Of a DNA stretch of 46,959 nt, positions 2,035-38,831 are shown one piece after another. Position 1 is the stretch's first letter; every line of letters starts with the position of its first letter. The DNA comes from Pachysolen tannophilus NRRL Y-2460 (taxonomy: Eukaryota). The stretch is from assembly GCA_001661245.1 (NCBI GenBank), contig KV454011.1, positions 410,108 through 457,066 of the forward strand, in the 5' to 3' direction. The notes beneath the pieces are model-generated. The model saw only the letters and a program-made list of their open reading frames with translations. It was not told the origin of the DNA and searched no databases. A program made the translations under genes and the position numbers.

Positions 2035-3258
2035 TCACTGTTTTTTAGAAATTTCATTACCGTCTTCATCATACTCTTTTATATCGCTTTGTAACCTTCT
2101 AATAGCCCAATTCTTCCCGATGAATTTAATATCAGGAGCACTAGCACCTTCAGTCAGAGTATATTCTTTCCAAAAACTTGGACTCTGTAATCTTGAATCT
2201 TCTTTTCTAAAACCCAAATGATTGTCTCTAATGTTTAAAACATTTTGTCTAATTTCAGCAGCTAATCTGCTTCTCAATTCCTTAGCTTCCTTACCAGTTT
2301 TCAATCTTTGAGATAAATCATATGGATTTTCAGGATCATAGTATTTTTCACATAAAGCTTCCCATTCTTTCCTATATTTAAAGATAATATCATCATCTAC
2401 TGGATCACCAATAGTTAATTTTATTTCAGCACCATAGTTCAGAGGAAGATAACGTTGAATAATATCTTCTGCAGCGGATTCAGGAGCAATTTTCTCAAAT
2501 CCAGTAGCAAAGATTGGTAAAACGATTGGGGGTCTTGTAGCTTCTAATACAAGTCTAGATATCCCCCATTTGAAATAACGCATTGAATTTGAATGTGGTT
2601 GTTGTAATTGACAAACAAAACCTTCTGGGAAAACATGAACCCATGAAGGTTTTGTTCTTATTACAGGAAGTTTATAATCATCAGAATAAAGTTTACTGAC
2701 TTGTTTTAAAAGGGAACTTTTCACCAATGACAGATCTAAATCTTGTTGTTCTTTCTGTGCCTGTGATAATACCGCCGATGGTACATATTCTAAATCTAAA
2801 GTATCATCTGGTGATAAAAGTCTAATTGTAGCATCTATACTTCCTTGAAATGGACCTCTACCAAACCTCTCAGTTGGTAATACTTTACCCAAAGAGAAAA
2901 AATAAGTTAAAACTTTATTTTTAAAACAAAGATTTTGTGCTCCAAGACACCATCTAATATTATCTATACCCCAATAGTATTTCAATGGTAACATCCCCCA
3001 CATTGATGGATCATCTACAACTGACATATGATTCATCACCGTGATAAGAGACCTGTTTTCATTCTTGGACCTCAAGAGAGCAGCATCCAACTTCTCCAAA
3101 CCTTCAACCTTCGGTGTGTATATGGTATTTAATATTACCTTCGATCCTAATATCATAAACATGCATGTAGCATGTGAAGCATATTGCCATAAAATCGAGC
3201 TTCTAGGAAACTCTTTTAAAAAATCATCACCTCTTTCTAAAACTTTAGGGAAAGACAT
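2035..3258 (-). CDS. TAZ1: Tafazzin, cardiolipin-remodelling lysophospholipid acyltransferase
   Basis: 407 aa with the acyltransferase HX4D motif (MNHMSVVDDP), IRWCLGA, WVHVFPEG and MRYFKWG motifs typical of tafazzin. Confidence 0.95.
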   Translation of the reverse strand: MSFPKVLERGDDFLKEFPRSSILWQYASHATCMFMILGSKVILNTIYTPKVEGLEKLDAALLRSKNENRSLITVMNHMSVVDDPSMWGMLPLKYYWGIDNIRWCLGAQNLCFKNKVLTYFFSLGKVLPTERFGRGPFQGSIDATIRLLSPDDTLDLEYVPSAVLSQAQKEQQDLDLSLVKSSLLKQVSKLYSDDYKLPVIRTKPSWVHVFPEGFVCQLQQPHSNSMRYFKWGISRLVLEATRPPIVLPIFATGFEKIAPESAAEDIIQRYLPLNYGAEIKLTIGDPVDDDIIFKYRKEWEALCEKYYDPENPYDLSQRLKTGKEAKELRSRLAAEIRQNVLNIRDNHLGFRKEDSRLQSPSFWKEYTLTEGASAPDIKFIGKNWAIRRLQSDIKEYDEDGNEISKKQ

Positions 3259-3386
3259 TGTTCCTTCTATCGCTCTCAGGACAGTCTATAGTTATTAATA
3301 TTATTATTAATATTATTATTCAGCGCCTCTCAGTCAACCAGTTCCACACATGTTTTCAGAAAACTAATTAAGCAAAAATTTTTTTT

Positions 3387-3424
<38 letters not shown>

Positions 3425-3440
3425 TTAGAAAAAATACAAA

Positions 3441-3612
3441 ATGCGCACCGCAGTTTAAAGTAAAATCCAAAATTGCGTATTGCTTGATGCGTACAGCAGA
3501 TGCGTAAACCTCTTGCTGTATGCATTTGTGTATTGCATTTGTAAATAAAGTGCGGTCCGCAAGTTAAAAGTGCAAGTGTGTACTGCAAATGCGGAATGTA
3601 AATGCGGTTCAT
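3441..3612. repeat. Degenerate ~13-bp-period TGC(G/A) motif array upstream of TAZ1
   Basis: TGCG/TGCA at 3442, 3474, 3488, 3501, 3521, 3534, 3551, 3571, 3584, 3590 and 3603; AAATGCGG occurs at 3587 and 3600. Confidence 0.6.
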
Positions 3613-4071
3613 TGTATGATCTATTTTTCCTTAAAATGGGACATATATCCAACCAACCAATCAATTAATTATACTGAAAAGATATTCAGAATAACTTTAA
3701 CAAACCGTTGATCTGTTTTGAAAAGAAATACAATTTGCTCATAATAATTGTTTATAGAGATCATTACTAGTGTTTATTCCATTCACTGCCTAGCTTCTAA
3801 TGCCTTGTTGAATTCTTTTTTTTTTTTTTCTTTTCCCCCAGCATAAAACATTTAATTAAATTACATCATTATTTAAAAAAAACTACCCCTTTCAACAAAG
3901 GTAATTATAAATTGAAGGGAAATCATAATCAAGTTTCGCGTTATTACCGTTTTCATCATAGGCGTCGAGAAGAAAAGAGAGAAAAAAAAAAGTAGAAATT
4001 ACATACCGGACGGTATTAAAGAATGTATAGCAGATCATCGACCTTTTTTTCAAACGTGCATCTCGCTAATG

Positions 4072-4095
4072 CAGCATAATTTTAAAATTATGCTG
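4072..4095. repeat. Perfect 24-bp palindrome CAGCATAATTTT|AAAATTATGCTG
   Basis: Read directly; the left arm 4072-4083 is the exact reverse complement of 4084-4095. Confidence 0.9.
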
Positions 4096-4286
4096 GATTA
4101 CAATATTACAATAAGATTCTTCTTTTAAACATCTACAATTTAATAAATTGAAAAAAAACCTTCAGATTGGAAACCAACGGAAAAAAGATTTTAAGAATTT
4201 ATATATAAAAAAAAGTTTGAAAAAGGGAACTGTAGAAAAGAATGGGTTTCTTGATGATCAACTCAAGAAACAGAAGAATTGAAAAG

Positions 4287-4317
<31 letters not shown>

Positions 4318-4389
4318 TTTGTTTTTTTGAAAAATAAAAAAAACTAACCACCCGATTTTAAAGTCCAAGTTTTAGTCTTCATATTGGCT

Positions 4390-4590
4390 TTAAAAAGTTT
4401 CCAATTGAGGTGGAGCTGAAGACAGTGGACCTGAAGACAGCGGAGCCGAAGATAATGGTGGTTGTGGATCACGCTTGACAAATGAACCATTGGTACAGTT
4501 ACCATAAGTTTGTTCTTCAACTGGCAGAGATTGGACAAATGAACCAACTAAAGCAACGACGCAAAATAATGAAAAGACTCTGAATTGCAT
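4390..4590 (-). CDS. Small secreted prepro-peptide, Kex2-processed candidate, 66 aa
   Basis: ATG preceded by an A-run, hydrophobic signal MQFRVFSLFCVVALVGSFVQS, pro region with NCT and NGS sequons, KR, DP-QP dipeptides, then three P-x-S-S-(A/G) units. TATAAAAA on the minus strand at 4747-4754. GC content is higher than the flanks. Confidence 0.7.
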   Translation of the reverse strand: MQFRVFSLFCVVALVGSFVQSLPVEEQTYGNCTNGSFVKRDPQPPLSSAPLSSGPLSSAPPQLETF

Positions 4591-5188
4591 TTTTTTTGAT
4601 TTTATTTTAAACTCTCTAAATTTCTAAATTTCTATAGTGAATGTAATCTATTGGTAGATAAAAACTATAACTGTATAACTTTTATTTACGAAAAGAATTT
4701 AAATTTTTTTTATTTTTTTTGAATCAATTAATAGGAATTCTTGAGGTTTTTATATTCTTTTATTAATTACCTACCTTTATGATTTTTATTCATCCCTTGA
4801 GACTCATTTGCTTTGCTGAAATCCATTGAAAAAATTGTTCCTAGGAAACAAAAAAAAGAAAAGAAACCCCAAAAAGATGAAAGAATAATAAAAAATTTGT
4901 AAAGTATATGCAACCATTTATTTCCGGAAAATCTAGAAACTGCTTTAATATAAGCTTTATTACTGAGGTTATAAAAGCAGGAGTACTCAAAAAGGTAGGT
5001 ACACCATCACTTTCAAAGTTTCGAAAGTTTATAGCCTATATTTTTCAGCTCTTACGTTTCACGATTATCATTTCAGTAAATTTTTTAATTTCTCAAAAAA
5101 ATTATCTTTAACTATTAAGTTCTATAAAGAATAACTTGCTATTACTCAAAAAAAAAAAGAAAAAAAAAAAAAAAAAAAAAAAAAAAAA

Positions 5189-5784
5189 NNNNNNNNNNNN
5201 NNNNNNNNNNNNNNNNNNNNNNNNNNNNNNNNNNNNNNNNNNNNNNNNNNNNNNNNNNNNNNNNNNNNNNNNNNNNNNNNNNNNNNNNNNNNNNNNNNNN
5301 NNNNNNNNNNNNNNNNNNNNNNNNNNNNNNNNNNNNNNNNNNNNNNNNNNNNNNNNNNNNNNNNNNNNNNNNNNNNNNNNNNNNNNNNNNNNNNNNNNNN
5401 NNNNNNNNNNNNNNNNNNNNNNNNNNNNNNNNNNNNNNNNNNNNNNNNNNNNNNNNNNNNNNNNNNNNNNNNNNNNNNNNNNNNNNNNNNNNNNNNNNNN
5501 NNNNNNNNNNNNNNNNNNNNNNNNNNNNNNNNNNNNNNNNNNNNNNNNNNNNNNNNNNNNNNNNNNNNNNNNNNNNNNNNNNNNNNNNNNNNNNNNNNNN
5601 NNNNNNNNNNNNNNNNNNNNNNNNNNNNNNNNNNNNNNNNNNNNNNNNNNNNNNNNNNNNNNNNNNNNNNNNNNNNNNNNNNNNNNNNNNNNNNNNNNNN
5701 NNNNNNNNNNNNNNNNNNNNNNNNNNNNNNNNNNNNNNNNNNNNNNNNNNNNNNNNNNNNNNNNNNNNNNNNNNNNNNNNNNNN
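5189..5784. other. Assembly gap (N run) following a poly(A) tract
   Basis: Run of n characters. Confidence 1.
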
Positions 5785-6555
5785 GAGATAAATCCTAAAT
5801 TCGACTAATATACAATAGATTGAAAGGTTCAAATTTAAATGAAAAACCACTCATTGGGTTTTTTTACTATTACCACTGTAAAGAGCAACTTGATAACTTT
5901 TGTTAAAAAGTATTTCTCTATGACTTTATGACTTCACCTTCATTTTTCCAAACTGTAATTTTAAAGTTTCGAGAGAGAGAGATTTTCCTTTAAGCATTTT
6001 TTGAGGCAGTGAAAATGCTCAACGAGGAATTTCAAACAAGAAATATTATTATTAACAGTTTTCACTTTAATACTCGCTTAATATAGAAACTGGTACTAGC
6101 TAATACATGAAATAGTTTAAAGTTTCTCTGATTTATTTTCTTTAATGGTTTGGTACCTTCTATTTTACTCAGAGCAATTTTGCACAACTTGATTTTTCGT
6201 CTTTTTTTTTTTTAAAGTTCTAGAAATTGTTTAATATGTAGACTAAGTCAGGAACGATTACGGAGGTTTTCGGTCTAATTTGTCTCAATTACCACAAATA
6301 TTTGACTTAAATTATCAATTATTACTTAATAAATTCAGGAACTGAAAAAAAAAAAAATTACATGTATTGATACTTAAGGCTTGATAATTCCCCTCTAATT
6401 TCAAAATGTTACTCTTTATCAAGATAATTCTATAACATAATTCATTATAAATTTAGCAAAAAAAAAAAGAAAAAAATAGTTTCCAGACAAACGCTATTAC
6501 TGGTAAATTATTAATAGACTTTATTGTAAAAGTATTGTTCAATTAATTCAAATTA

Positions 6556-6888
6556 TTAAAGTGTGAAAAGAAGGTTATTTTTGAAATATGCACAGCAGTA
6601 CCTCTTTCGGTGTCCACTCCGAAAAATGTATGATGAGTAATAAAAGCTTGAAAATACTGCTATAGCAAAAACGAAACAAGTTATTACTCTTTGAATAATC
6701 TTTTTTTTTTCTCTTATCGATCTTCGTTCGACCTTGGTTAATTGTAGAAGAAGCGATTTGCTGTTCTCCCAGGTAATTGTGCCACCATGTTTTTGGGAAC
6801 TGGCTTTTTTTGAAATTCTAATTAAGAAGATTTTGATCAAAGTAAGATCATCATAGCCTTGAGGCAATACTAAATTCTCGAAGATCAT
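6556..6888 (-). CDS. Hypothetical 110-aa orphan ORF with one possible transmembrane helix
   Basis: ATG start and a basic patch (RRSIREKKK) followed by hydrophobic VITCFVFAIAVFSSFYY. No family recognised. Confidence 0.3.
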   Translation of the reverse strand: MIFENLVLPQGYDDLTLIKIFLIRISKKASSQKHGGTITWENSKSLLLQLTKVERRSIREKKKIIQRVITCFVFAIAVFSSFYYSSYIFRSGHRKRYCCAYFKNNLLFTL

Positions 6889-7112
6889 TCTATTTTATGG
6901 TGTTGGGTAAATGAGTTAATTACAAAAATCAATGTCCTTTTGACCAAATGAAATTAAATGATAAACTGTACAATACAAGAAAATAAAAAAACTGAAATAA
7001 AAAAAAAAAAAAAAAAACAAGACAATAAAAAAACACAGACTTTTAACGTAAATTTCTAATTAATAATAGAAAATATGGAAGCAAACAAAGACCATATTTT
7101 ATTGTGAAATAA

Positions 7113-10100
7113 TCAATTAACAGGAGGCATTTTTGCCAAAACATCAAAACTACCGGTACCAACTTTTGATAGTTTACCAACAACAATTCTTGAAGATGGT
7201 GAATCAAGATCTTCACGGTCGTTATCTAGCACAGCTTTTGTTAAGAACAGACATGTAGTTTCATAAGACATCTTCATGAATGGAGATGTTGATGAGTCAA
7301 TACCTTGACGATTAAAAGCCAAATATGTACCTTCCCTGGTCATCATATCACCAATGAGGTCTAAATGTCTCGAAGAAACTGTAATAGCATAACGACCAAA
7401 GACATTATTTATTTCATTGACAATTGTATTTCTAGCAGCTTCGACACCATAGGTTCTTAAAACAGCAGCAACATCATTTGAAGTTATTCCATTAACATCT
7501 ACAAAGTCTTCTTGCTCCCACAAGGCTTGGAAATTGACACCTTCAGTAACAAGAACACGTTTTCCCTTTTCTGGCTCTGGATGAACACATCTACCAATAT
7601 TTGGAATTTCTCTAACGACAACTTCATTACACAATTGTTCAACAATATTAACCATCAACAACTTTTGAGTTTCAGCACTCAAATCAAGCTTGAATTTACA
7701 CCATGAACCTCTTTCATCATCAAAGTTGAATTTTGATATTAAATGATGTTGAGTAATAACCTCTTGTTCTCTGTCCCGAGCAAGTTTAGATAATTTCAAT
7801 GTTTTGGTTTCCGGTTCATCAATATCCATTTTATCATTAGGCTTTCCATCATTTTCATCAGATGAGAGATCATCATCAGATGATAAGTTATCTTCTTCGT
7901 CAGATGATTTTTCTGCTGCTTTCATCGTCTCCAACTCATCTTCATCAGGACCATCATATGAAACAGCTTGTTTAGTGTTTGAACGCAATTTGTCATCATC
8001 AGCATCTGCTTCATCTTCCCCATCGTTTGTTTTGACTGGAAGAATACGATCATCACTAGTTATTTCAGTCTGAGACTTAGGAACAGCCAAACCAATGGTT
8101 GGCAAAGACTCAGAATTTGGCTTCTTCTGTTTCTTAACTTCTTTGATAATAGCTGATTCTAACTGTCTCAAAAATTTAGTCACTATAACATGCTCTAATT
8201 CTTGTTTCGAAGAATCATATTCTTGTGCATACTCGTCACAATCATAAAATGTGATACGGATTACGTATGAACGTGCAGTTGCACCTCCATCTCCTGAAGC
8301 ACCTGTTGTCTCTGTAACTGTGACTTTATCAATGAATTCGGCAAGAGTGATTCTTGCAACCGATTTACAAAATGTATCTGCTTGTTCATCAGAAACATCA
8401 TCCAAAATCGGTAATGTCATCTGTGGAGTTTTGATTGAAGAAGAAGCAGTCATAATGATTTCTCTCATACGTGGAATACCCAATGTAACATTAGCAGCAC
8501 CATGTCCTGCAAAATGGAACGTATTCAATGTCATTTGTGTCGAAGGCTCACCAATTGATTGCGACGCTATAATACCAACAGCTTCACCTGGATTAATTAA
8601 AGATTTCATATATTTCAATTGCATCAAAGCACGGAATTTCTTTTCAGTCAAAGCACCAGATTGCTTTGCATCCTTGGAAGATGCAAAAAGGTTAGGATTT
8701 TCATCAATGAATTGGTCTAAGTGTTTCTGGAATGATTCTGAAACCGATCCCAAAAATTTGGATGGATTATATACAGATAAAACCGGATCATATTTATCAT
8801 CTTGAGAATAGTGAGGTAATGAGCCAATTTTTTTCATGTGTTTACGAACTTTCTTGGAATAACGTAATGCTGTTTCGGTATCAAGATGCTCAATCAATTC
8901 ACCAGGATTGTATTTCTTCAATAAGGAATCATAATTTTCAGCACAAAATTTAAATTCATACATGTGGGACTCTTTCGTTACATCAACAGAATCTCCACCA
9001 TATAAGAACTGAATCAAAGTACTATCACCATCCCTCACTGTATTATCGTAGCTGACATGAACACCTTCGAATTGTTTTGTTAAACAACGCTGTAAATAAC
9101 CTGATCTGGAGGTCTTAACAGCCGTATCGATCAAACCTTCTCTACCCGCCATACAATGGAAATAATACTCCTGTGGTCTGATACCAGAGTAAAAACGGCC
9201 CTTGATGTAACCACCTGCTCTAGCATCAGTCTCAAAAGGTTTGAAAGAAGGTAAAGTCTTACCACTGACCATAGTAGGAACTCTTCTACCTTCTAAAGCT
9301 TGCTGACCTAAAAGACACATAATTTGAGAGACATTAACATTAGAACCTTTAGCACCCGATAATGCCATCGCTTGCATAGAATTATATGGGAAACGTTTCA
9401 TGGTACCTTCAGGAACACATTTAGAGACAACTTGGGAGGTGATAGAGTTTACTTTAGATTGTGTGATAGCATCTAAAATTCCAGATTTGATGTCATCCCT
9501 TAATATTTCCTCGAGTCGTTTCAATAACTCAGGATCTTGATGATCAATATCAGAGGACAAATTTGTAACTTCAGCAGCAGCAATACGACCTATTTCTACG
9601 GAGGTCTTCAAAATATCATTTCTCCAATTATTACCCTCATCTGTTAATCTTAAATCATCCATACCACAAGTAAACCCAGTCATAGTGATGTAATTTGTAA
9701 ACAATCTACCTAAAACTGATAAAGCTTTACCTGCTACACTTGGACCATACACTTCATGAAGCGAATGAATAATACCAAATTTGGAAGCACCATATTGGGA
9801 TTTATCCAATATACCACAAATCAATTCACCATTTTTGAATATAACATCGTTCTCAGTAGAAGATGCACCCCAGTAATCTGATTTTATCTTGTTTTTGGAT
9901 ATCAAATTAACACCTGGCATATCTTCCGGTTTAATATTCAATAAAATAGTAGTGATGACTTGTTTACCAGTCCATAAAGGTTCCGGTTTAATGATGGCCG
10001 GTCTTACAGTGATTATTCTGTTTCTTGTTGAATGACCATCCTCTGGACGAATACAGCCGTAAATTAACTGCTGATATTTTTCCCTAGTGAAAAAAGAGTC

Positions 10101-17858: not shown

Positions 17859-18863
17859 TTACCATAGACTAACACCGTTACCATTTCCATGGTTCATATC
17901 GTTTGGGAAAGTTGGATTCTGGGCTGTGTTTGGTGTTAGCTGACCCATACCCATACCTCCACCATTGACGTTGCCACTGCCACTTCCACTTCCACTGCTA
18001 CTGCCTGCGCCGCCGCCACCAACACCACCACCACCACTAGCTGCTCTCGCCTGGTTTAATATTTGCTGTGGACTTAGTGCTTGGAGCCCATTGTTGATGG
18101 AAGGACTACCCACACTGTGCTGCAGTTGATGTTGCAGTTGGACTTGCAGTTGTTGAAATAGTTGCTGTTGGTGTTGTGGAGCAAGTTGCGGAACAAATTG
18201 TTGTGGTGTAGGCGCTGTTGAACCCATCGGACTTCCAAGGGCACTGGAATACGGTTTTTGCCCCACACCGTTACTAGATATATTGTTCCCACTGTCCATA
18301 AGCTGTTGTTGTTGTTGTTGTTGTTGTTGCTGTTGCTGTTGCTGTTGCTGTTGTTGTTGTCTGAGCATCAACAACCGTTTCTGGAAATACAGCACGCCCT
18401 CGGGGTATAGATGCTGCAAAGTATTATACAACTCGACCACCTCCGGCACATCCAGCGGTGGAGTCAAAATTTGCGGGAACTGAGGTTTGTTAGCCATATT
18501 AGCATTATCACCAGCACCACTTGTACCACTTGTACTACCATTAGCGCCAATGGCGGCAGCGGCGCTTTGCGCCGAATGCCGTTCATTTATTGTTGCTAAC
18601 ATTGTTAAATTACAATGTATTCTCTTTATATAATTCTGGAAATTCTCTTTCAACTGCTGGGGCCCATTATTACCATTATTCAGTAGAGTTTGTTGTAACA
18701 TTGAGCATTTTTGTATAAGAATTGAATTTATTGAAAGTAATATATGTATTCTTTTTTTATTTAGTTCAATTAAATTATTGGGAATACCAGCGTTGGGATT
18801 CCCAACGCTGTGGCCACTACTTGAATTACTATTCTCACTTAACTGTTGTTGAATCCCATTCAT
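17859..18863 (-). CDS. SNF11: Snf11/SS18-like (SSXT domain) Q-rich protein, probable SWI/SNF subunit
   Basis: ATG at 18863 (the track's 18866 start is GTG). RIHILLSINSILIQ...RIHCNLTMLATI resembles the SSXT helix pair. It is divergent from IPT1, as SNF11 (YDR073W) is from IPT1 (YDR072C) in S. cerevisiae. Confidence 0.65.
   Translation of the reverse strand: MNGIQQQLSENSNSSSGHSVGNPNAGIPNNLIELNKKRIHILLSINSILIQKCSMLQQTLLNNGNNGPQQLKENFQNYIKRIHCNLTMLATINERHSAQSAAAAIGANGSTSGTSGAGDNANMANKPQFPQILTPPLDVPEVVELYNTLQHLYPEGVLYFQKRLLMLRQQQQQQQQQQQQQQQQQQQLMDSGNNISSNGVGQKPYSSALGSPMGSTAPTPQQFVPQLAPQHQQQLFQQLQVQLQHQLQHSVGSPSINNGLQALSPQQILNQARAASGGGGVGGGGAGSSSGSGSGSGNVNGGGMGMGQLTPNTAQNPTFPNDMNHGNGNGVSLW
18303..18359 (-). 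repeat. CAA/CAG trinucleotide repeat encoding a 19-Gln tract
   Basis: Uninterrupted (ttg/ctg)n on the + strand, in frame in the SNF11-like gene. Confidence 0.95.
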
Positions 18864-20110: not shown

Positions 20111-21637
20111 ATGAATATAAATATAAGGAATATATTTACACCGGTATGGTGGGTGATAGGTTTTATAATAAGGATAGTTAAAGCATGTTGTAATGGAAGA
20201 AATGTTTTCCAATTACTGTTAAATTTTTTTATAAATTTTTCATTAATACTGATTTGGTTATGTATGTTTAAAAATGCTGGTATTGTTCCAAATGATATAA
20301 GACCTCCTATTCATGTTAGATTAATTATGAATTTGGATGATTTCTTGTATAATTTTGCCTCATTACATGGATGGTTAACTTGTATTTTATCAATAGTTTC
20401 TGGTTATTTTATCTATGATTTTTGGTATACTATTGGAAAGACAAATACTGGTTCTAAATTAGTTACTAGTAATAATGTTGATGATACTGATTCTGGAAGC
20501 TTAGATTCAGGTTCTTTAGAATTTGATGAAGAAGATCATCGTTTGGAAAATTTTGTTGAATTTGATCTTTCTTCAAGTTCTTCTAGTACAAATAATAACG
20601 AGGATTTCCAAAAGCGTTTGGATGATCTGCAAATGTACTCGGGAAGTGGTAACAGTAATGAAAGAACAATCATCAACCCGGCCAGTAATGTTACAACCGC
20701 TGGTTCTGCTGTTTCTGGTGCCAGTATTCCTGATTCTGGTGCTGGTATTCCTACTGCTGGTTCCACTAGCGGGAGGAATGCACACTCGGAAAGTCCCTAT
20801 GATGAGTTTGATTACGATGATGACTTGTTTAAACATACTTTAATCAATTCTCGTTCCACAGTACACAAGGATTACGCTTACCTCCCTCTTGGGTGTTTAT
20901 ACTATGAACCTCCATTACTATTTGCATTATCCTGGTTGGTTTTAAATTTCGATTATTTGTTGCGTTTCCCACAAACAACTTTTAAAGATTTATTAGCTTG
21001 GACATCTTATGTCTTGGGTCATATCTTACTGCCAATTTTCACTTCAATTTGGCTTTACCTTTTCCATACCCCAGGACTGGTGAAATGGTTTGGTCTTACA
21101 ATGGGATTACAAAATATTGCCGCAGTAATAACACATATGGTTTTCCCAAATGCCCCACCATGGTTCATTCAATTATACGGTGAAGATGCTTCCCTGAACT
21201 ATGATATGTTAGGTTATGCTGCAGGATTGACAAGAGTCGATATTGCATTGGATACCCATTTAAATTCAGACGGTTTCCATAAATCACCAGTGGTGTTTGG
21301 TGCTTTCCCATCAACACATTCGGCAATGGCAGTCTTGGTTTGTTATTTCTTGAGTTATTATTCTCGTTGGCACATTGTAAAAGTCCTCGGGATTGGTTAT
21401 GTCGTTTTACAATGGTGGGCCACAATATATTTAGATCATCATTGGAGATTTGATTTATTTGCAGGTATGGTTTACGCATTAATTGTTTTCACATTATTCA
21501 AATCAAGATTAATCATTGCAGAAAAAGTTTTCGTCAATGCAAGATTATCAAATGATTTTAAAAATGGAAGTACTGCTGGCATGAGGATTTTTAAAAATAC
21601 AAGATTACAAAGATGGTTTGATCCTTACTCTAAATAA
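20111..21637 (+). CDS. IPT1: Inositolphosphotransferase (M(IP)2C synthase; AUR1/IPT1 PAP2 family)
   Basis: 508 aa with PAP2-type motifs FPNAPPWF, GYAAGLTRVD, FGAFPSTHSA and ATIYLDHHWRFDL. The N-terminal IWLCMFKNAGIVP..RPPIHV and GLQNIA match the IPT1 branch. Synteny with PAA1 and SNF11 supports the call. Confidence 0.88.
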   Translation: MNINIRNIFTPVWWVIGFIIRIVKACCNGRNVFQLLLNFFINFSLILIWLCMFKNAGIVPNDIRPPIHVRLIMNLDDFLYNFASLHGWLTCILSIVSGYFIYDFWYTIGKTNTGSKLVTSNNVDDTDSGSLDSGSLEFDEEDHRLENFVEFDLSSSSSSTNNNEDFQKRLDDLQMYSGSGNSNERTIINPASNVTTAGSAVSGASIPDSGAGIPTAGSTSGRNAHSESPYDEFDYDDDLFKHTLINSRSTVHKDYAYLPLGCLYYEPPLLFALSWLVLNFDYLLRFPQTTFKDLLAWTSYVLGHILLPIFTSIWLYLFHTPGLVKWFGLTMGLQNIAAVITHMVFPNAPPWFIQLYGEDASLNYDMLGYAAGLTRVDIALDTHLNSDGFHKSPVVFGAFPSTHSAMAVLVCYFLSYYSRWHIVKVLGIGYVVLQWWATIYLDHHWRFDLFAGMVYALIVFTLFKSRLIIAEKVFVNARLSNDFKNGSTAGMRIFKNTRLQRWFDPYSK

Positions 21638-21688
21638 AAAGAAAAAAAAAAAAAAAAAAAGCAAAAAAAAAAAAAAAAAAAAAATTTT

Positions 21689-22376
21689 NNNNNNNNNNNN
21701 NNNNNNNNNNNNNNNNNNNNNNNNNNNNNNNNNNNNNNNNNNNNNNNNNNNNNNNNNNNNNNNNNNNNNNNNNNNNNNNNNNNNNNNNNNNNNNNNNNNN
21801 NNNNNNNNNNNNNNNNNNNNNNNNNNNNNNNNNNNNNNNNNNNNNNNNNNNNNNNNNNNNNNNNNNNNNNNNNNNNNNNNNNNNNNNNNNNNNNNNNNNN
21901 NNNNNNNNNNNNNNNNNNNNNNNNNNNNNNNNNNNNNNNNNNNNNNNNNNNNNNNNNNNNNNNNNNNNNNNNNNNNNNNNNNNNNNNNNNNNNNNNNNNN
22001 NNNNNNNNNNNNNNNNNNNNNNNNNNNNNNNNNNNNNNNNNNNNNNNNNNNNNNNNNNNNNNNNNNNNNNNNNNNNNNNNNNNNNNNNNNNNNNNNNNNN
22101 NNNNNNNNNNNNNNNNNNNNNNNNNNNNNNNNNNNNNNNNNNNNNNNNNNNNNNNNNNNNNNNNNNNNNNNNNNNNNNNNNNNNNNNNNNNNNNNNNNNN
22201 NNNNNNNNNNNNNNNNNNNNNNNNNNNNNNNNNNNNNNNNNNNNNNNNNNNNNNNNNNNNNNNNNNNNNNNNNNNNNNNNNNNNNNNNNNNNNNNNNNNN
22301 NNNNNNNNNNNNNNNNNNNNNNNNNNNNNNNNNNNNNNNNNNNNNNNNNNNNNNNNNNNNNNNNNNNNNNNNNNNN
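21689..22376. other. Assembly gap (N run) flanked by A-rich tracts
   Basis: Run of n characters. Confidence 1.
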
Positions 22377-22480
22377 TAAAAAAATTTTAAAAACGTTTAA
22401 AGTAAAATAAGTAAGAAATAAAACAAAACAAAAAAAAAAAAAAAAAAAAAAATACAAAAAATACATAATATAATATTTTA

Positions 22481-22825
22481 TTAATTTCTCCCACCTGGGA
22501 CCAACATTGCAATATGATTCCCATTTAATAACTATTTTTTTTTCTTTTTATCTTTCTCATCTGATTCATCTTTTGGATCAATCTCTGTAACATCTTCTAG
22601 TATCATATTAACAAAATCATCAAATCCGATTAATTTTCCAATAAATTCTTTATCATCATCCATTATAATCCAAATTTTAGAACCAATACATTTGTCGATA
22701 AGTTCTAAAGGAAGTATTGTATTCGTTGTGGTGGATAAAACATCATCCGATGTAGAGGTTGCAGTTGTAGGTGTAGCAGCTGAAGATGAAAATTTCCCCT
22801 CTTGAGGAATTGATGCTGTCGACAT
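22481..22825 (-). CDS. LSM5: U6 snRNA-associated Sm-like protein Lsm5, interrupted by an in-frame TAG at 22532-22534
   Basis: ATG at 22825; Sm1 region [19 protein letters not shown]...[12 protein letters not shown]. After KKKKK-TAG the same frame reads [19 protein letters not shown], the conserved Lsm5 Sm2 motif. Confidence 0.92.
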
Positions 22826-34494: not shown

Positions 34495-35411
34495 TATTTT
34501 GGCGGGGAAATCAAGTCTCGTACCTATTTATTGCCAACACAAGCAATGATAACAAAAATCATGAACTCATTCTCTTGCTTTGCTTAGATCAATTTGGTTT
34601 GGTCAACCACAAGGCTAAGGCTAAGGTTTCTTGCATGCTGCAAAAATGGAATCACCGTCAGTACTTTTCCTCGGATACGTTAAATTTTTTTTTGTAATTT
34701 TTTGTAATTTCTACCCGCTCGCTCACGCCTAAAATATGCTTGGGGAAAGAGCCAATGTACTTGGTTCACCCGGTTATGTTTACGCGGCCGCCTAAAAAAA
34801 AAAAAATTTTTTTTTTTTTTGTTTTTCTTTTTTTTTTTTTTTTTACGGGATTTCCCTTGTTTCGGCAACGGGTAAAGGCAAACTCTCAGCAAGAAAAGTG
34901 AAGAGAATTATAATTACTTATTTCTGATTTCTAATTTCTTTTTATCCGACTTTAAAAAATAAAAAAGTTTAATTCATCTTTATTTCATCTTGAATTAATG
35001 AATAAATGTAATTTTCGTGCATGTTTCATTTAAACTGATAGGTAGTTAAAGAGTTTTTCCTTTTTACTTAGAAAAAAAAAATCTAAATTTTCTTGAACGT
35101 TTCAACAAAAAAAAAAAAAGAAAAAGACACCAATCACTTGATGATACGTTTTTACTTTGTCTGAATGCGAAAAAGCAAAAAAAAAAAAAGGGATGGAAAC
35201 ATCAAATGACAAACGACCCCATAATATTACAGTCACTGGAGAAGTTTGCAGTTTGCAGTTTGCAGTTCCAATGGCAATTGCAGTTGCAGTTGCCCTATTT
35301 TTTCCTTCTATCGATTAATTGCATGTTTTCAATTCAGATAAAATGAGTTTCTCTAGAGTTTTATCGGTCTTAGTGTCTGTATCTTTTTCTGTTTACATTT
35401 ACCAATATAAG

Positions 35412-38375: not shown

Positions 38376-38831
38376 ATGGCTGATGGAAGCATAGAGGTTA
38401 CAGGTGGTGCAGATGATTTAGATGACACCATTTCTTTACCGTCACCGACGCTTTTGAATAAGTTAAAGTCGTCGAATTTACCGATGAATTTATTTCACAG
38501 TGTAAATAATGCCTTTATAAGAAAGACTATTATTTTTACAAGTGAAGGAGAAATAATATGTGGATGGCTGAATAATGATAATATAGAGGTTGAGGACGGT
38601 GAGGAGTTGGGACTGGTTCCTAGAGTGTTTGCTGTGACTATTGTGAACTATTGTCTTCAGTTTTTAGGTAATTGCTCGGATTTAGCTAAGGAAATTTATA
38701 AAGAAGAAGAACAAGAACAAGAACAAGATGTCAAATCTATACGATTAAGTTTTGGTTCTAAAAATGAGTTCATATTGGTCCCAGACAATGAATTTGTAAT
38801 ATGTGTTGTTGCTGAAAGAAAGTACTCCTAG
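38376..38831 (+). CDS. Roadblock/LC7-family protein (dynein light chain roadblock-like)
   Basis: IRKTIIFTSEGEII and QDVKSIRLSFGSKNEFILVPDNEFVICVV align by eye with the DYNLRB motifs VQGIIVVNTEGIPI and [28 protein letters not shown]. Confidence 0.7.
   Translation: MADGSIEVTGGADDLDDTISLPSPTLLNKLKSSNLPMNLFHSVNNAFIRKTIIFTSEGEIICGWLNNDNIEVEDGEELGLVPRVFAVTIVNYCLQFLGNCSDLAKEIYKEEEQEQEQDVKSIRLSFGSKNEFILVPDNEFVICVVAERKYS

What the first reader, a model, noticed from the sequence alone, without database searches (positions are those of the whole stretch)
4390..4590. Tiny prepro-peptide gene with pheromone-like processing but an unfamiliar mature peptide
Seen: a 21-aa signal peptide, then (reading CTG as Ala) APVEEQ, two N-glycosylation sequons (NCT, NGS), Lys-Arg, dipeptides DP-QP and PLSSA-PASSG-PASSA-PPQLETF. 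Established: signal ending before AP, a glycosylated pro region, Kex2 KR and Ste13-removable X-P/X-A dipeptides is the alpha-factor precursor layout, and other fungal Kex2-processed peptide precursors use similar processing. The predicted 22-26-aa product has no Trp or basic residues and does not resemble alpha-factors I know. It has its own TATA box, upstream palindromes (TTCCTAGGAA 4838-4847, TTTCCGGAAA 4921-4930) and lies in a gene-poor interval. Inference: a possibly undescribed secreted signalling or O-mannosylated peptide that falls below usual annotation cut-offs. This is the best candidate for a new system in the window.
Basis: partly seen in the sequence, partly recalled or inferred. 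Interest (0 to 1): 0.75.

Follow-up and report, generated by a model that had tools for sequence, protein, structure and literature searches.

The report
Unannotated tiny secreted prepro-peptide gene
A 66-codon gene missed by annotation in a yeast that reads CTG as alanine probably encodes a secreted peptide cut out the way mating pheromones are, but it has no known relatives and its function is untested.

Summary
A 66-codon ATG-to-TAA ORF lies on the minus strand at 4390-4590, and every listed motif is present. It looks like a real gene. Its codon statistics fall within the range of the window's large genes. It is a 43-49% GC island between flanks of about 18-25% GC. It has gene-like GC1>GC2>GC3, a 203-nt ATG-free leader, an A-rich start context and one TATAAAAA box. 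Reading CTG as Ala is supported by orthologue alignment. The product is a signal-peptide helix followed by a disordered chain. The only Lys and Arg after the signal sequence are adjacent (KR) and are followed by DP-QP; 0.0125% of composition-preserving shuffles reproduce that signature. Three tandem 15-nt units encode the Ser/Pro tail.

No homologue, paralogue or Pfam family was found, and the ORF is absent from the protein collections that hold this genome's other proteins. Transcription, secretion and processing could not be tested: no genome is held and no yeast genomes were searchable. It is not a KEP (only one KR), and it matches no Pfam family, so no alpha-factor model either. Best reading: an orphan secretory prepro-peptide processed by Kex2/Ste13 and probably O-mannosylated. 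A signalling role remains speculation. Interest is moderate.

The parts
4390..4590 (-). 66-codon ORF (ATG 4590-4588, TAA 4392-4390) encoding the prepro-peptide
   Evidence: Codon log-likelihood ratio (LLR) 0.48-0.515 per codon. CAI-like index 0.72. GC 43-49% against flanks of 18-25%. Sequence confirmed without differences by contigs of 2 of 4 runs.
4528..4590 (-). Predicted signal peptide, residues 1-21 (n-region with R4, hydrophobic core, c-region V-Q-S)
   Evidence: AF2 helix 2-20, pLDDT 83-87. Passes crude signal-peptide criteria, as do only 2 of 77 small ORFs. SignalP was not available.
4471..4527 (-). Short pro-segment, residues 22-40: APVEEQTYGNCTNGSFVKR. It has two N-X-S/T sequons (N31, N34), one Cys, and ends in the only Lys-Arg (4476-4471).
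   Evidence: Shuffles give two or more sequons in 2.9% and KR/RR adjacency in 2.2%.
4459..4470 (-). Ste13-type dipeptides D-P and Q-P directly after KR
   Evidence: KR[DE][AP].[AP] appears in 0.0125% of 200,000 shuffles. The X-A/X-P rule comes from passages of PMC6339444.
4393..4458 (-). 22-residue Ser/Pro-rich tail PLSSAPASSGPASSAPPQLETF. Residues 45-59 are three tandem 15-nt units.
   Evidence: TRF 4410-4452, period 15, 2.9 copies. Disordered in the AF2 model.
4591..4793 (-). ATG-free leader/core promoter: A-rich start context (AAAAAAAATG) and a TATAAAAA box at 4754-4747
   Evidence: nearest upstream ATG on this strand is 203 nt away, and this is the single TATA[AT]A[AT][AG] match in the 598 nt upstream.
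4838..4847 (.). Palindrome TTCCTAGGAA, a possible regulator site
   Evidence: This site is the only TTCCNNGGAA in the window; one search lists it once per strand.
4921..4930 (.). Palindrome TTTCCGGAAA. It contains TTCnnGAA, a heat-shock-element-like dimer by recalled consensus.
   Evidence: 17 ten-nt palindromes with 4 or more G/C occur in the whole window, two of them here 84 nt apart.

Best explanation
A real protein-coding gene, not present in the public gene sets searched, that encodes a 66-residue secretory prepro-peptide.

Shown by calls:
- The ORF exists and has gene-like codon usage.
- This genome reads CTG as Ala.
- The chain after the N-terminal helix is disordered.
- A single KR is followed by DP-QP.
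- The tail is a 3-unit tandem repeat.

Inferred from established yeast secretory biology:
- Residues 1-21 direct the chain into the ER and are removed after V-Q-S.
- N31 and N34 are N-glycosylated.
- The Ser-rich tail is O-mannosylated.
- In the late Golgi, Kex2 cuts after K39-R40.
- Ste13 trims D-P and Q-P.
- A 22-26-residue acidic Ser/Pro-rich (glyco)peptide is released into the wall or medium.

The downstream role is unknown. I rate a structural or extracellular-matrix-type or otherwise non-pheromone role as more likely than a mating signal.
For: Gene reality:
- Codon log-likelihood ratio (LLR) is 0.48 per codon. That is the highest of the 26 ATG-ORFs of 40 codons or more outside the 15 reference genes, whose own range is 0.219-0.541. 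After the LSM-domain ORF, the 151-aa ORF and a 41-codon ORF at 35193-35318 (0.216), all others score 0.042 or less.
- 0 of 5000 mononucleotide shuffles reach the observed LLR of 34.0 (mean -0.9, sd 7.2).
- The CAI-like index is 0.72, against 0.527-0.838 for 17 genes. 0 of 5000 random synonymous recodings reach it (mean 0.406).
- GC1/2/3 is 0.53/0.48/0.24, against 0.40/0.34/0.24 for genes.
- It forms a GC island.
- It has a 203-nt ATG-free leader, an A-rich start context and one TATA box.
- The sequence is reproduced with 0 differences and 0 gaps by contigs of 2 of 4 runs, all from one sample that may be the source.

Genetic code:
- At the three conserved CTG positions of IPT1, Ala is found in 10, 15 and 16 of 24 orthologues, and Leu in 0, 0 and 1.
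- The collection's own entry for this genome has Ala there.

Secretion and processing:
- Only 2 of 77 small ORFs pass the crude signal-peptide criteria. The other one is a poly-Phe ORF with LLR -0.33.
- AF2 gives a helix at 2-20 and disorder for the rest.
- Shuffle rates are 2.2% for KR/RR, 0.65% for KR.[AP] and 0.0125% for KR[DE][AP].[AP].
- Acidic residues at P1' are over-represented in Kex2 sites cleaved in vitro (passages of PMC2515848).
- X-P/X-A dipeptides are the Ste13 signature (passages of PMC6339444).
Against: - No homologue was found anywhere, so there is no conservation evidence.
- No expression evidence could be obtained.
- Codon LLR does not separate the strands. The in-phase antisense frame scores 0.589 per codon. 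Only its 2 stops, the lack of an ATG, the reversed GC3 and a lower CAI of 0.59 argue against it.
- CTG is about 12-fold over-represented: 3 of 66 codons against 40 of 10,207. Two of the three sit in duplicated repeat units.
- The signal-peptide call rests on my own crude rules, not on SignalP.
- The KR/Ste13 shuffle test was designed after seeing the motif.
- About one third of well-scoring predicted Kex2 sites were not cut in vitro (PMC2515848).
Confidence: 0.5

Rival explanations
1. It is a small secreted or wall-associated O-mannosylated protein in which the KR is incidental. The whole 45-residue chain after the signal peptide is the product. Its single Cys32 may link it to itself or to other wall proteins.
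For: The signal-peptide and coding evidence is the same as for the best explanation. The tail is a mucin-like tandem repeat. Not every good KR site is cleaved (PMC2515848 passages). A single free Cys is present.
Against: The only K and the only R after the signal peptide are adjacent and followed by two X-P dipeptides, which 0.0125% of shuffles reproduce. The site lies in a disordered and therefore accessible chain. There is no hydrophobic GPI-type C-terminus: the highest 15-residue hydropathy after the signal is 0.07.
Confidence: 0.2
2. It is this yeast's alpha-factor-type mating pheromone gene in a minimal single-copy form.
For: The pre / N-glycosylated pro / KR / X-P X-P / C-terminal peptide layout is present. 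By passages of PMC6339444, known alpha pheromones run from 1 to 16 copies and 9 to 24 residues, so 1 copy of 22 residues is within range. From recall, not from a call: the S. cerevisiae pro-region also starts Ala-Pro-Val.
Against: No Pfam family matches at E up to 10, alpha-factor models included. The 19-residue pro-segment is far shorter than I recall for alpha-factor leaders. The peptide is a low-complexity P-x-S-S repeat with no aromatic or basic core. The 598 nt of promoter held carry no perfect TGAAACA and no CC(A/T)6GG (recalled motifs, and the promoter may run on into the N gap). I could not check whether a canonical MFalpha gene exists elsewhere in this genome.
Confidence: 0.06
3. It is not a gene. 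It is a chance ORF in a local GC-rich patch, for example a regulatory or non-coding RNA element, or an exon-like piece on the + strand.
For: ORFs of this size are common here: 26 of 40 codons or more lie outside genes. There are no homologues and the ORF is not in public gene sets. CTG is enriched. The antisense frame also has gene-like codon LLR.
Against: It ranks first of 26 in codon LLR, and 0 of 5000 shuffles or recodings reach its LLR or CAI. Its GC3 of 0.24 equals that of genes while GC1 and GC2 are raised. It combines a signal-peptide-like start (2 of 77) with the KR signature. The + strand open segment has no ATG, is only 32 codons long, and no splice signals were found around it. There was no Rfam match over the ORF.
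Confidence: 0.13
4. It is a truncated remnant of a longer Ser/Pro-rich cell-wall protein gene.
For: The Ser/Pro repeat tail resembles the spacer regions of wall mannoproteins (recalled).
Against: No longer relative was found by the word-indexed search of 117-2000-aa proteins or by HMMER over 1.84 billion representatives of any length. DNA downstream of the stop is about 18-25% GC with no coding-like segment in any frame. The other two reading frames past the stop end within 3 and 18 codons. No indel was seen in re-assembled contigs.
Confidence: 0.05

Closest known systems
Prepro-alpha-factor (MFalpha) pheromone precursors of Ascomycota
   Same: Signal peptide, N-glycosylatable pro-segment, Kex2 KR site, Ste13-type X-P dipeptides, and a product at the C-terminus. 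The 22-26-residue product is within the 9-24-residue and 1-16-copy ranges quoted in PMC6339444.
   Different: No Pfam family match. The pro-segment is only 19 residues. There is a single copy. The product is an acidic Ser/Pro tandem repeat. No Ste12 or Mcm1-type motifs occur in the promoter held.
KEX2-processed repeat proteins (KEPs; PMC6339444, PMC7329392)
   Same: A secreted precursor expected to be cut by Kex2, with Ste13 signatures after the cut.
   Different: KEPs are defined by three or more repeated peptides separated by KR/RR/KK (passages). Here there is one KR, and the three 5-residue repeats are not separated by dibasic sites.
Kex2-matured wall and secreted proteins with short N-terminal propeptides (Pir, Scw/Sun, Exg1; listed in PMC2515848)
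   Same: A signal peptide plus a short propeptide ending in KR, with an acidic P1' residue.
   Different: Those have folded catalytic or Pir-repeat domains after the cut. Here only 26 disordered residues follow, with no domain.
Small-ORF-encoded fungal peptide signals such as Cryptococcus Qsp1 (recalled, not checked in a call)
   Same: A very small gene below usual annotation cut-offs yielding a secreted peptide.
   Different: No sequence relation was tested and the processing route is different. The comparison is by analogy only.

Membership tests
Alpha-factor (MFalpha) precursor | N-terminal signal peptide | tested here: met
   Crude n/h/c-region and (-3,-1) rule test: 2 of 77 small ORFs pass, and this is one of them. 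AF2 helix 2-20. No SignalP was run.
Alpha-factor (MFalpha) precursor | Pro-region or hormone matching the Pfam alpha-factor models (names recalled: MF_alpha_N, MF_alpha) | tested here: not met
   hmmscan against Pfam-A: 0 families at E up to 10, for both the Ala and Leu readings.
Alpha-factor (MFalpha) precursor | Kex2 dibasic site followed by Ste13 X-A/X-P dipeptides in front of the mature peptide | tested here: met
   K39-R40, D-P, Q-P. 0.0125% of shuffles reproduce it. This is met in sequence only; cleavage was not shown.
Alpha-factor (MFalpha) precursor | Mature peptide of about 9-24 residues, usually in several KR-flanked copies | tested here: inconclusive
   22 residues after trimming (26 before), in a single copy. 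PMC6339444 passages quote 1-16 copies.
Alpha-factor (MFalpha) precursor | Mating-type or pheromone-pathway control of expression, and activation of the Ste2 receptor | not testable with these tools
   The only available check was for recalled S. cerevisiae motifs: 0 TGAAACA and 0 CC(A/T)6GG in 4591-5188.
KEX2-processed repeat proteins (KEPs) | Signal peptide plus three or more internal repeats with KEX2 sites between them | tested here: not met
   The definition comes from passages of PMC6339444. The ORF has one KR, and its repeats are not KR-separated.
GPI-anchored Ser/Thr-rich wall mannoproteins | C-terminal hydrophobic GPI-attachment signal | tested here: not met
   The C-terminus is PPQLETF. 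The maximum 15-residue hydropathy after the signal peptide is 0.07.
Kex2-matured wall proteins (Pir/Sun/Scw) | Recognisable mature domain after the propeptide | tested here: not met
   No Pfam family. The model is disordered after residue 20.

The most novel reading that the evidence does not exclude
A lineage-restricted secreted peptide signal. On this reading, a single-copy mini-precursor uses the alpha-factor processing route (signal peptidase, Kex2, Ste13) to release an O-glycosylated Ser/Pro-rich 22-mer. That peptide would act as an extracellular cue in CUG-Ala-clade yeasts, for density, morphology or mating. It would be a fungal counterpart of glycosylated Pro/Ser-rich peptide hormones and unrelated to known alpha-factors.
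Probability: 0.12. Interest if true: 0.7.

Novelty: new member of a known kind. Interest (0 to 1): 0.38.

Why it matters
If the gene is real, annotation cut-offs hide secretory peptide genes even in compact, well-studied yeast genomes. It would also provide the smallest natural example of the pre / pro / KR / X-P layout that biotechnology borrows from alpha-factor leaders. It would be a clean substrate for studying Kex2/Ste13 processing and O-mannosylation in a yeast with an altered genetic code, since three of its 66 codons are the reassigned CTG. If the peptide has a signalling role, it would be a new fungal peptide cue. If it is only a wall or matrix peptide, it is an ordinary orphan gene.

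Tried and rejected
- **Whole-genome search:** no genome is held for this window. Paralogues outside the window, a canonical MFalpha gene, and KEX2/STE13 genes could therefore not be sought.
- **RNA evidence:** no RNA holder was listed. The 4 runs listed are of one sample and one study and hold the DNA. Laying them gave contigs from 2 of 4 runs (X3, X4) identical to the window over 4320-5140. X1 and X2 laid nothing, which the tool says can be false. This says nothing on expression.
- **Homology searches:**
  - Word-indexed search of 36-116-aa proteins: 8 candidates, none at E 10 or better.
  - Word-indexed search of 117-2000-aa proteins: 243 candidates, none.
  - HMMER over 1.84 billion representatives: 1 hit, P0001 (E 5.5e-7). 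I rejected it. It is a 990-aa protein of about 9 near-identical repeats, each giving the same weak 33-column match (13-14 identities, one 5-residue gap) to the signal-peptide region, so the score is inflated by repetition.
  - Metagenome contigs: 599 pattern matches, none confirmed.
  - ESM Atlas: best feature score 0.78, below the tool's lead threshold.
  - tblastn within the window: no paralogue, next best E 2.6.
  - Earlier findings of this scan: nothing for this genome or sequence, and one unrelated bacterial item.
- **Rfam over 3200-7200:** only a chance-level BaMV_CRE match at 3982-4099 (32 bits against a gathering score of 100).
- **Introns:** no GTATGT/GTAAGT-type or ACTAAC-type words on the minus strand in 3259-4700, except GTATGT at 4006-4001, which is 385 nt past the stop. 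No further coding-like segment that could be a second exon.
- **Bacterial-type promoter/terminator scan:** not applicable to a yeast.
- **Supplements:** those of PMC4937558 (proteomics of Pachysolen) could not be read. They might list peptides and could bear on translation.
- **Literature:** a search for 'Pachysolen' plus 'pheromone' gave 10 papers. None is about a Pachysolen pheromone gene, judged by titles and abstract starts. I read passages of two of them.
- **Fold search:** not run, because the model is disordered.

Full report
**1. What is there**

The window is AT-rich yeast-like nuclear DNA: 30% GC, with two N gaps at 5189-5784 and 21689-22376. It carries ordinary eukaryotic genes:
- a TAZ1-like acyltransferase
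- the RNA polymerase I largest subunit
- Npa1/Urb1
- IPT1
- a TRK transporter
- a sugar transporter
- VPS28
- TFIIE-alpha
- SNF5.

On the minus strand, 4590-4390, lies an ATG-to-TAA ORF of 66 codons. Under NCBI table 26 it reads MQFRVFSLFCVVALVGSFVQSAPVEEQTYGNCTNGSFVKRDPQPPLSSAPASSGPASSAPPQLETF. Three codons are CTG, at residues 22, 51 and 56. Residues 45-59 are three tandem 15-nt units: TRF 4410-4452, period 15, 2.9 copies, 85% matches.

**2. Genetic code**

CTG is rare in the 16 large ORFs counted (40 of 10,207 codons). I tested its meaning on IPT1 (20111-21637), which has six CTG codons. I aligned it with 24 of the 120 listed homologues, chosen for having names and for spread across genera, plus the collection's own entry for this genome.

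At the three CTG positions in the conserved PAP2 region:

| Position | Ala (of 24) | Leu (of 24) | Other |
|---|---|---|---|
| 307 | 10 | 0 | Val 9 |
| 323 | 15 | 0 | |
| 362 | 16 | 1 | |

The three remaining positions lie in poorly conserved parts and are uninformative or contrary. Position 36 has Ala 2 and Leu 1. Position 47 has Phe 16, Leu 3 and Ala 1. Position 173 is mostly gaps.

The collection's entry for this genome (P0002) carries Ala at the CTG positions it covers. Passages of PMC4937558 report that 97.2% of the CUG positions fully supported by mass spectra are Ala in Pachysolen. The Ala reading is therefore justified. No tool named the organism.

**3. Is the ORF a gene?**

Length alone says nothing, because 26 ATG-ORFs of 40 codons or more lie outside the 15 reference genes. 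Several other measures do mark it as a gene.

- **Codon log-likelihood ratio (LLR; coding table against intergenic trinucleotides).** The ORF scores 0.48 per codon. That is the best of the 26 and inside the gene range of 0.219-0.541. Next come two ORFs that also look real: 22532-22825, which has an LSM domain, and 38376-38831. A 41-codon ORF scores 0.216, and all the others score 0.042 or less.
- **Shuffles.** 0 of 5000 mononucleotide shuffles reach the observed LLR.
- **Synonymous codon use.** A CAI-like index built on the window's genes gives 0.72, against 0.527-0.838 for 17 genes. 0 of 5000 random synonymous recodings of the same peptide reach it (mean 0.406, sd 0.039).
- **GC by codon position.** The ORF has 0.53/0.48/0.24, against 0.40/0.34/0.24 for genes.
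- **GC island.** The ORF is 43-49% GC between flanks of 18-25%.
- **Leader.** The 203 nt upstream on the coding strand contain no ATG. The start context is AAAAAAAATG. One TATAAAAA lies 164 nt upstream.

A caveat applies to the LLR. The in-phase antisense frame scores as high (0.589 per codon), so LLR does not choose the strand. The minus strand is chosen for other reasons. It is open from ATG to stop. The plus-strand open segment (4409-4504) is 32 codons with no ATG. That segment has reversed position-specific GC and a lower CAI of 0.59.

The sequence itself is sound. Contigs of 2 of 4 runs cover 4320-5140 with 0 differences and 0 gaps. All four runs are from one sample, which is possibly the source.

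The ORF is not in the protein collections that do hold this genome's IPT1. So it is unannotated there.

**4. What the product looks like**

AF2 without an alignment gives a confident helix over residues 2-20 and nothing ordered after it (mean pLDDT 61.8; blocks 87, 83, then 46-59).

I applied crude signal-peptide criteria:
- a basic residue near the start
- an uncharged 12-residue core with hydropathy of 2.0 or more
- a (-3,-1) site
- a hydrophilic remainder.

Only 2 of 77 ATG-ORFs of 40-140 codons pass. The other one is a poly-Phe ORF with non-coding codon statistics.

After the signal sequence, the only Lys and the only Arg are adjacent and in KR order. In 200,000 composition-preserving shuffles of the 45-residue chain:

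| Pattern | Share of shuffles |
|---|---|
| KR/RR | 2.2% |
| KR.[AP] | 0.65% |
| KR[DE][AP].[AP] | 0.0125% |
| two or more sequons | 2.9% |

These tests were framed after seeing the motif, so they overstate significance. Even so, the signature is hard to get from composition alone.

The literature passages read agree with the inference. Kex2 sites that were cleaved in vitro are enriched for acidic residues at P1'/P2', and about two thirds of predicted substrates were cut (PMC2515848). Ste13 removes X-A/X-P dipeptides after the Kex2 cut (PMC6339444).

**5. Most likely mechanism**

The proposed route is:
1. co-translational ER entry
2. signal cleavage after V-Q-S
3. N-glycosylation at N31 and N34
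4. O-mannosylation of the Ser-rich tail
5. Kex2 cleavage after K39-R40
6. Ste13 removal of D-P and Q-P
7. release of PLSSAPASSGPASSAPPQLETF, or the 26-mer if untrimmed.

All of these steps are inferred. Only the sequence features are shown.

The tandem P-x-S-S-[AG] units and the absence of aromatic or basic residues suggest a glycosylated extracellular peptide rather than a classical GPCR ligand.

**6. Comparison with known families**

- **Alpha-factor precursors.** The layout matches a miniature alpha-factor precursor, and the product size falls in the published range. Against this, no Pfam family matches at E up to 10 and the pro-segment is very short. The held 598 nt of promoter lack perfect Ste12- and Mcm1-type motifs (the motifs are recalled from S. 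cerevisiae, and the promoter may run on into the N gap).
- **KEPs.** The definition of three or more KR-separated repeats is not met.
- **GPI wall proteins.** There is no GPI-type C-terminus.
- **Remnant of a longer gene.** No longer relative was found. No coding-like DNA lies downstream. The other frames past the stop close within 3 and 18 codons.

**7. Promoter features**

The two palindromes are real. 17 ten-nt palindromes with 4 or more G/C occur in the whole window, and two of them lie here, 84 nt apart, sharing TTCC/GGAA half-sites. This is suggestive of a dimeric regulator, but it is weak evidence.

**8. Limits**

No yeast genome could be searched, no RNA evidence was available, and no homologues were found. 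The gene call therefore rests on intrinsic statistics alone.

**9. Verdict**

The best reading is an orphan, unannotated secretory prepro-peptide gene. It is a new member of the known kind of Kex2/Ste13-processed fungal peptide precursors. A signalling role is open but unsupported.

Noticed in passing
window 3440-3610: A GC bump (35-40%) upstream of the TAZ1-like acyltransferase gene. It consists of about eight spaced ATGCG/TTGCG/GTGCG words and may be a cluster of transcription-factor sites.
   Followed up: no
window 17859-18863 (-): A Gln-rich 334-aa ORF with no Pfam family carries 6 CTG codons, three of them inside a Q-A-Q type repeat. Clustering of the reassigned codon in low-complexity repeats is therefore not peculiar to the small ORF.
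   Followed up: partly
window 4409-4504 (+): The in-phase antisense frame of the small ORF is open for 32 codons (GGAEDSGPEDSG...) and scores as gene-like in codon LLR as the sense frame. This warns that this statistic does not pick the strand.
   Followed up: yes
window 5189-5784 and 21689-22376: Two assembly gaps of N. The first cuts the small gene's upstream region 598 nt from its ATG. The 278-aa 'ORF' at 21630-22466 is only the second gap read through.
   Followed up: partly
window 38376-38831 (+): A 151-aa ORF with coding-like codon statistics (0.335 per codon) and no Pfam family, lying next to VPS28.
   Followed up: no
window 4282-4315, 3395-3422, 5150-5188, 6985-7008: Long poly(A)/poly(T) tracts flank the small gene and the gap. 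Re-assembled contigs end at them: the 867-nt contig spans about 4292-5158.
   Followed up: no
window 3982-4099 (-): An Rfam BaMV_CRE match at 32 bits against a gathering score of 100. It is a chance match in A/U-rich DNA.
   Followed up: yes
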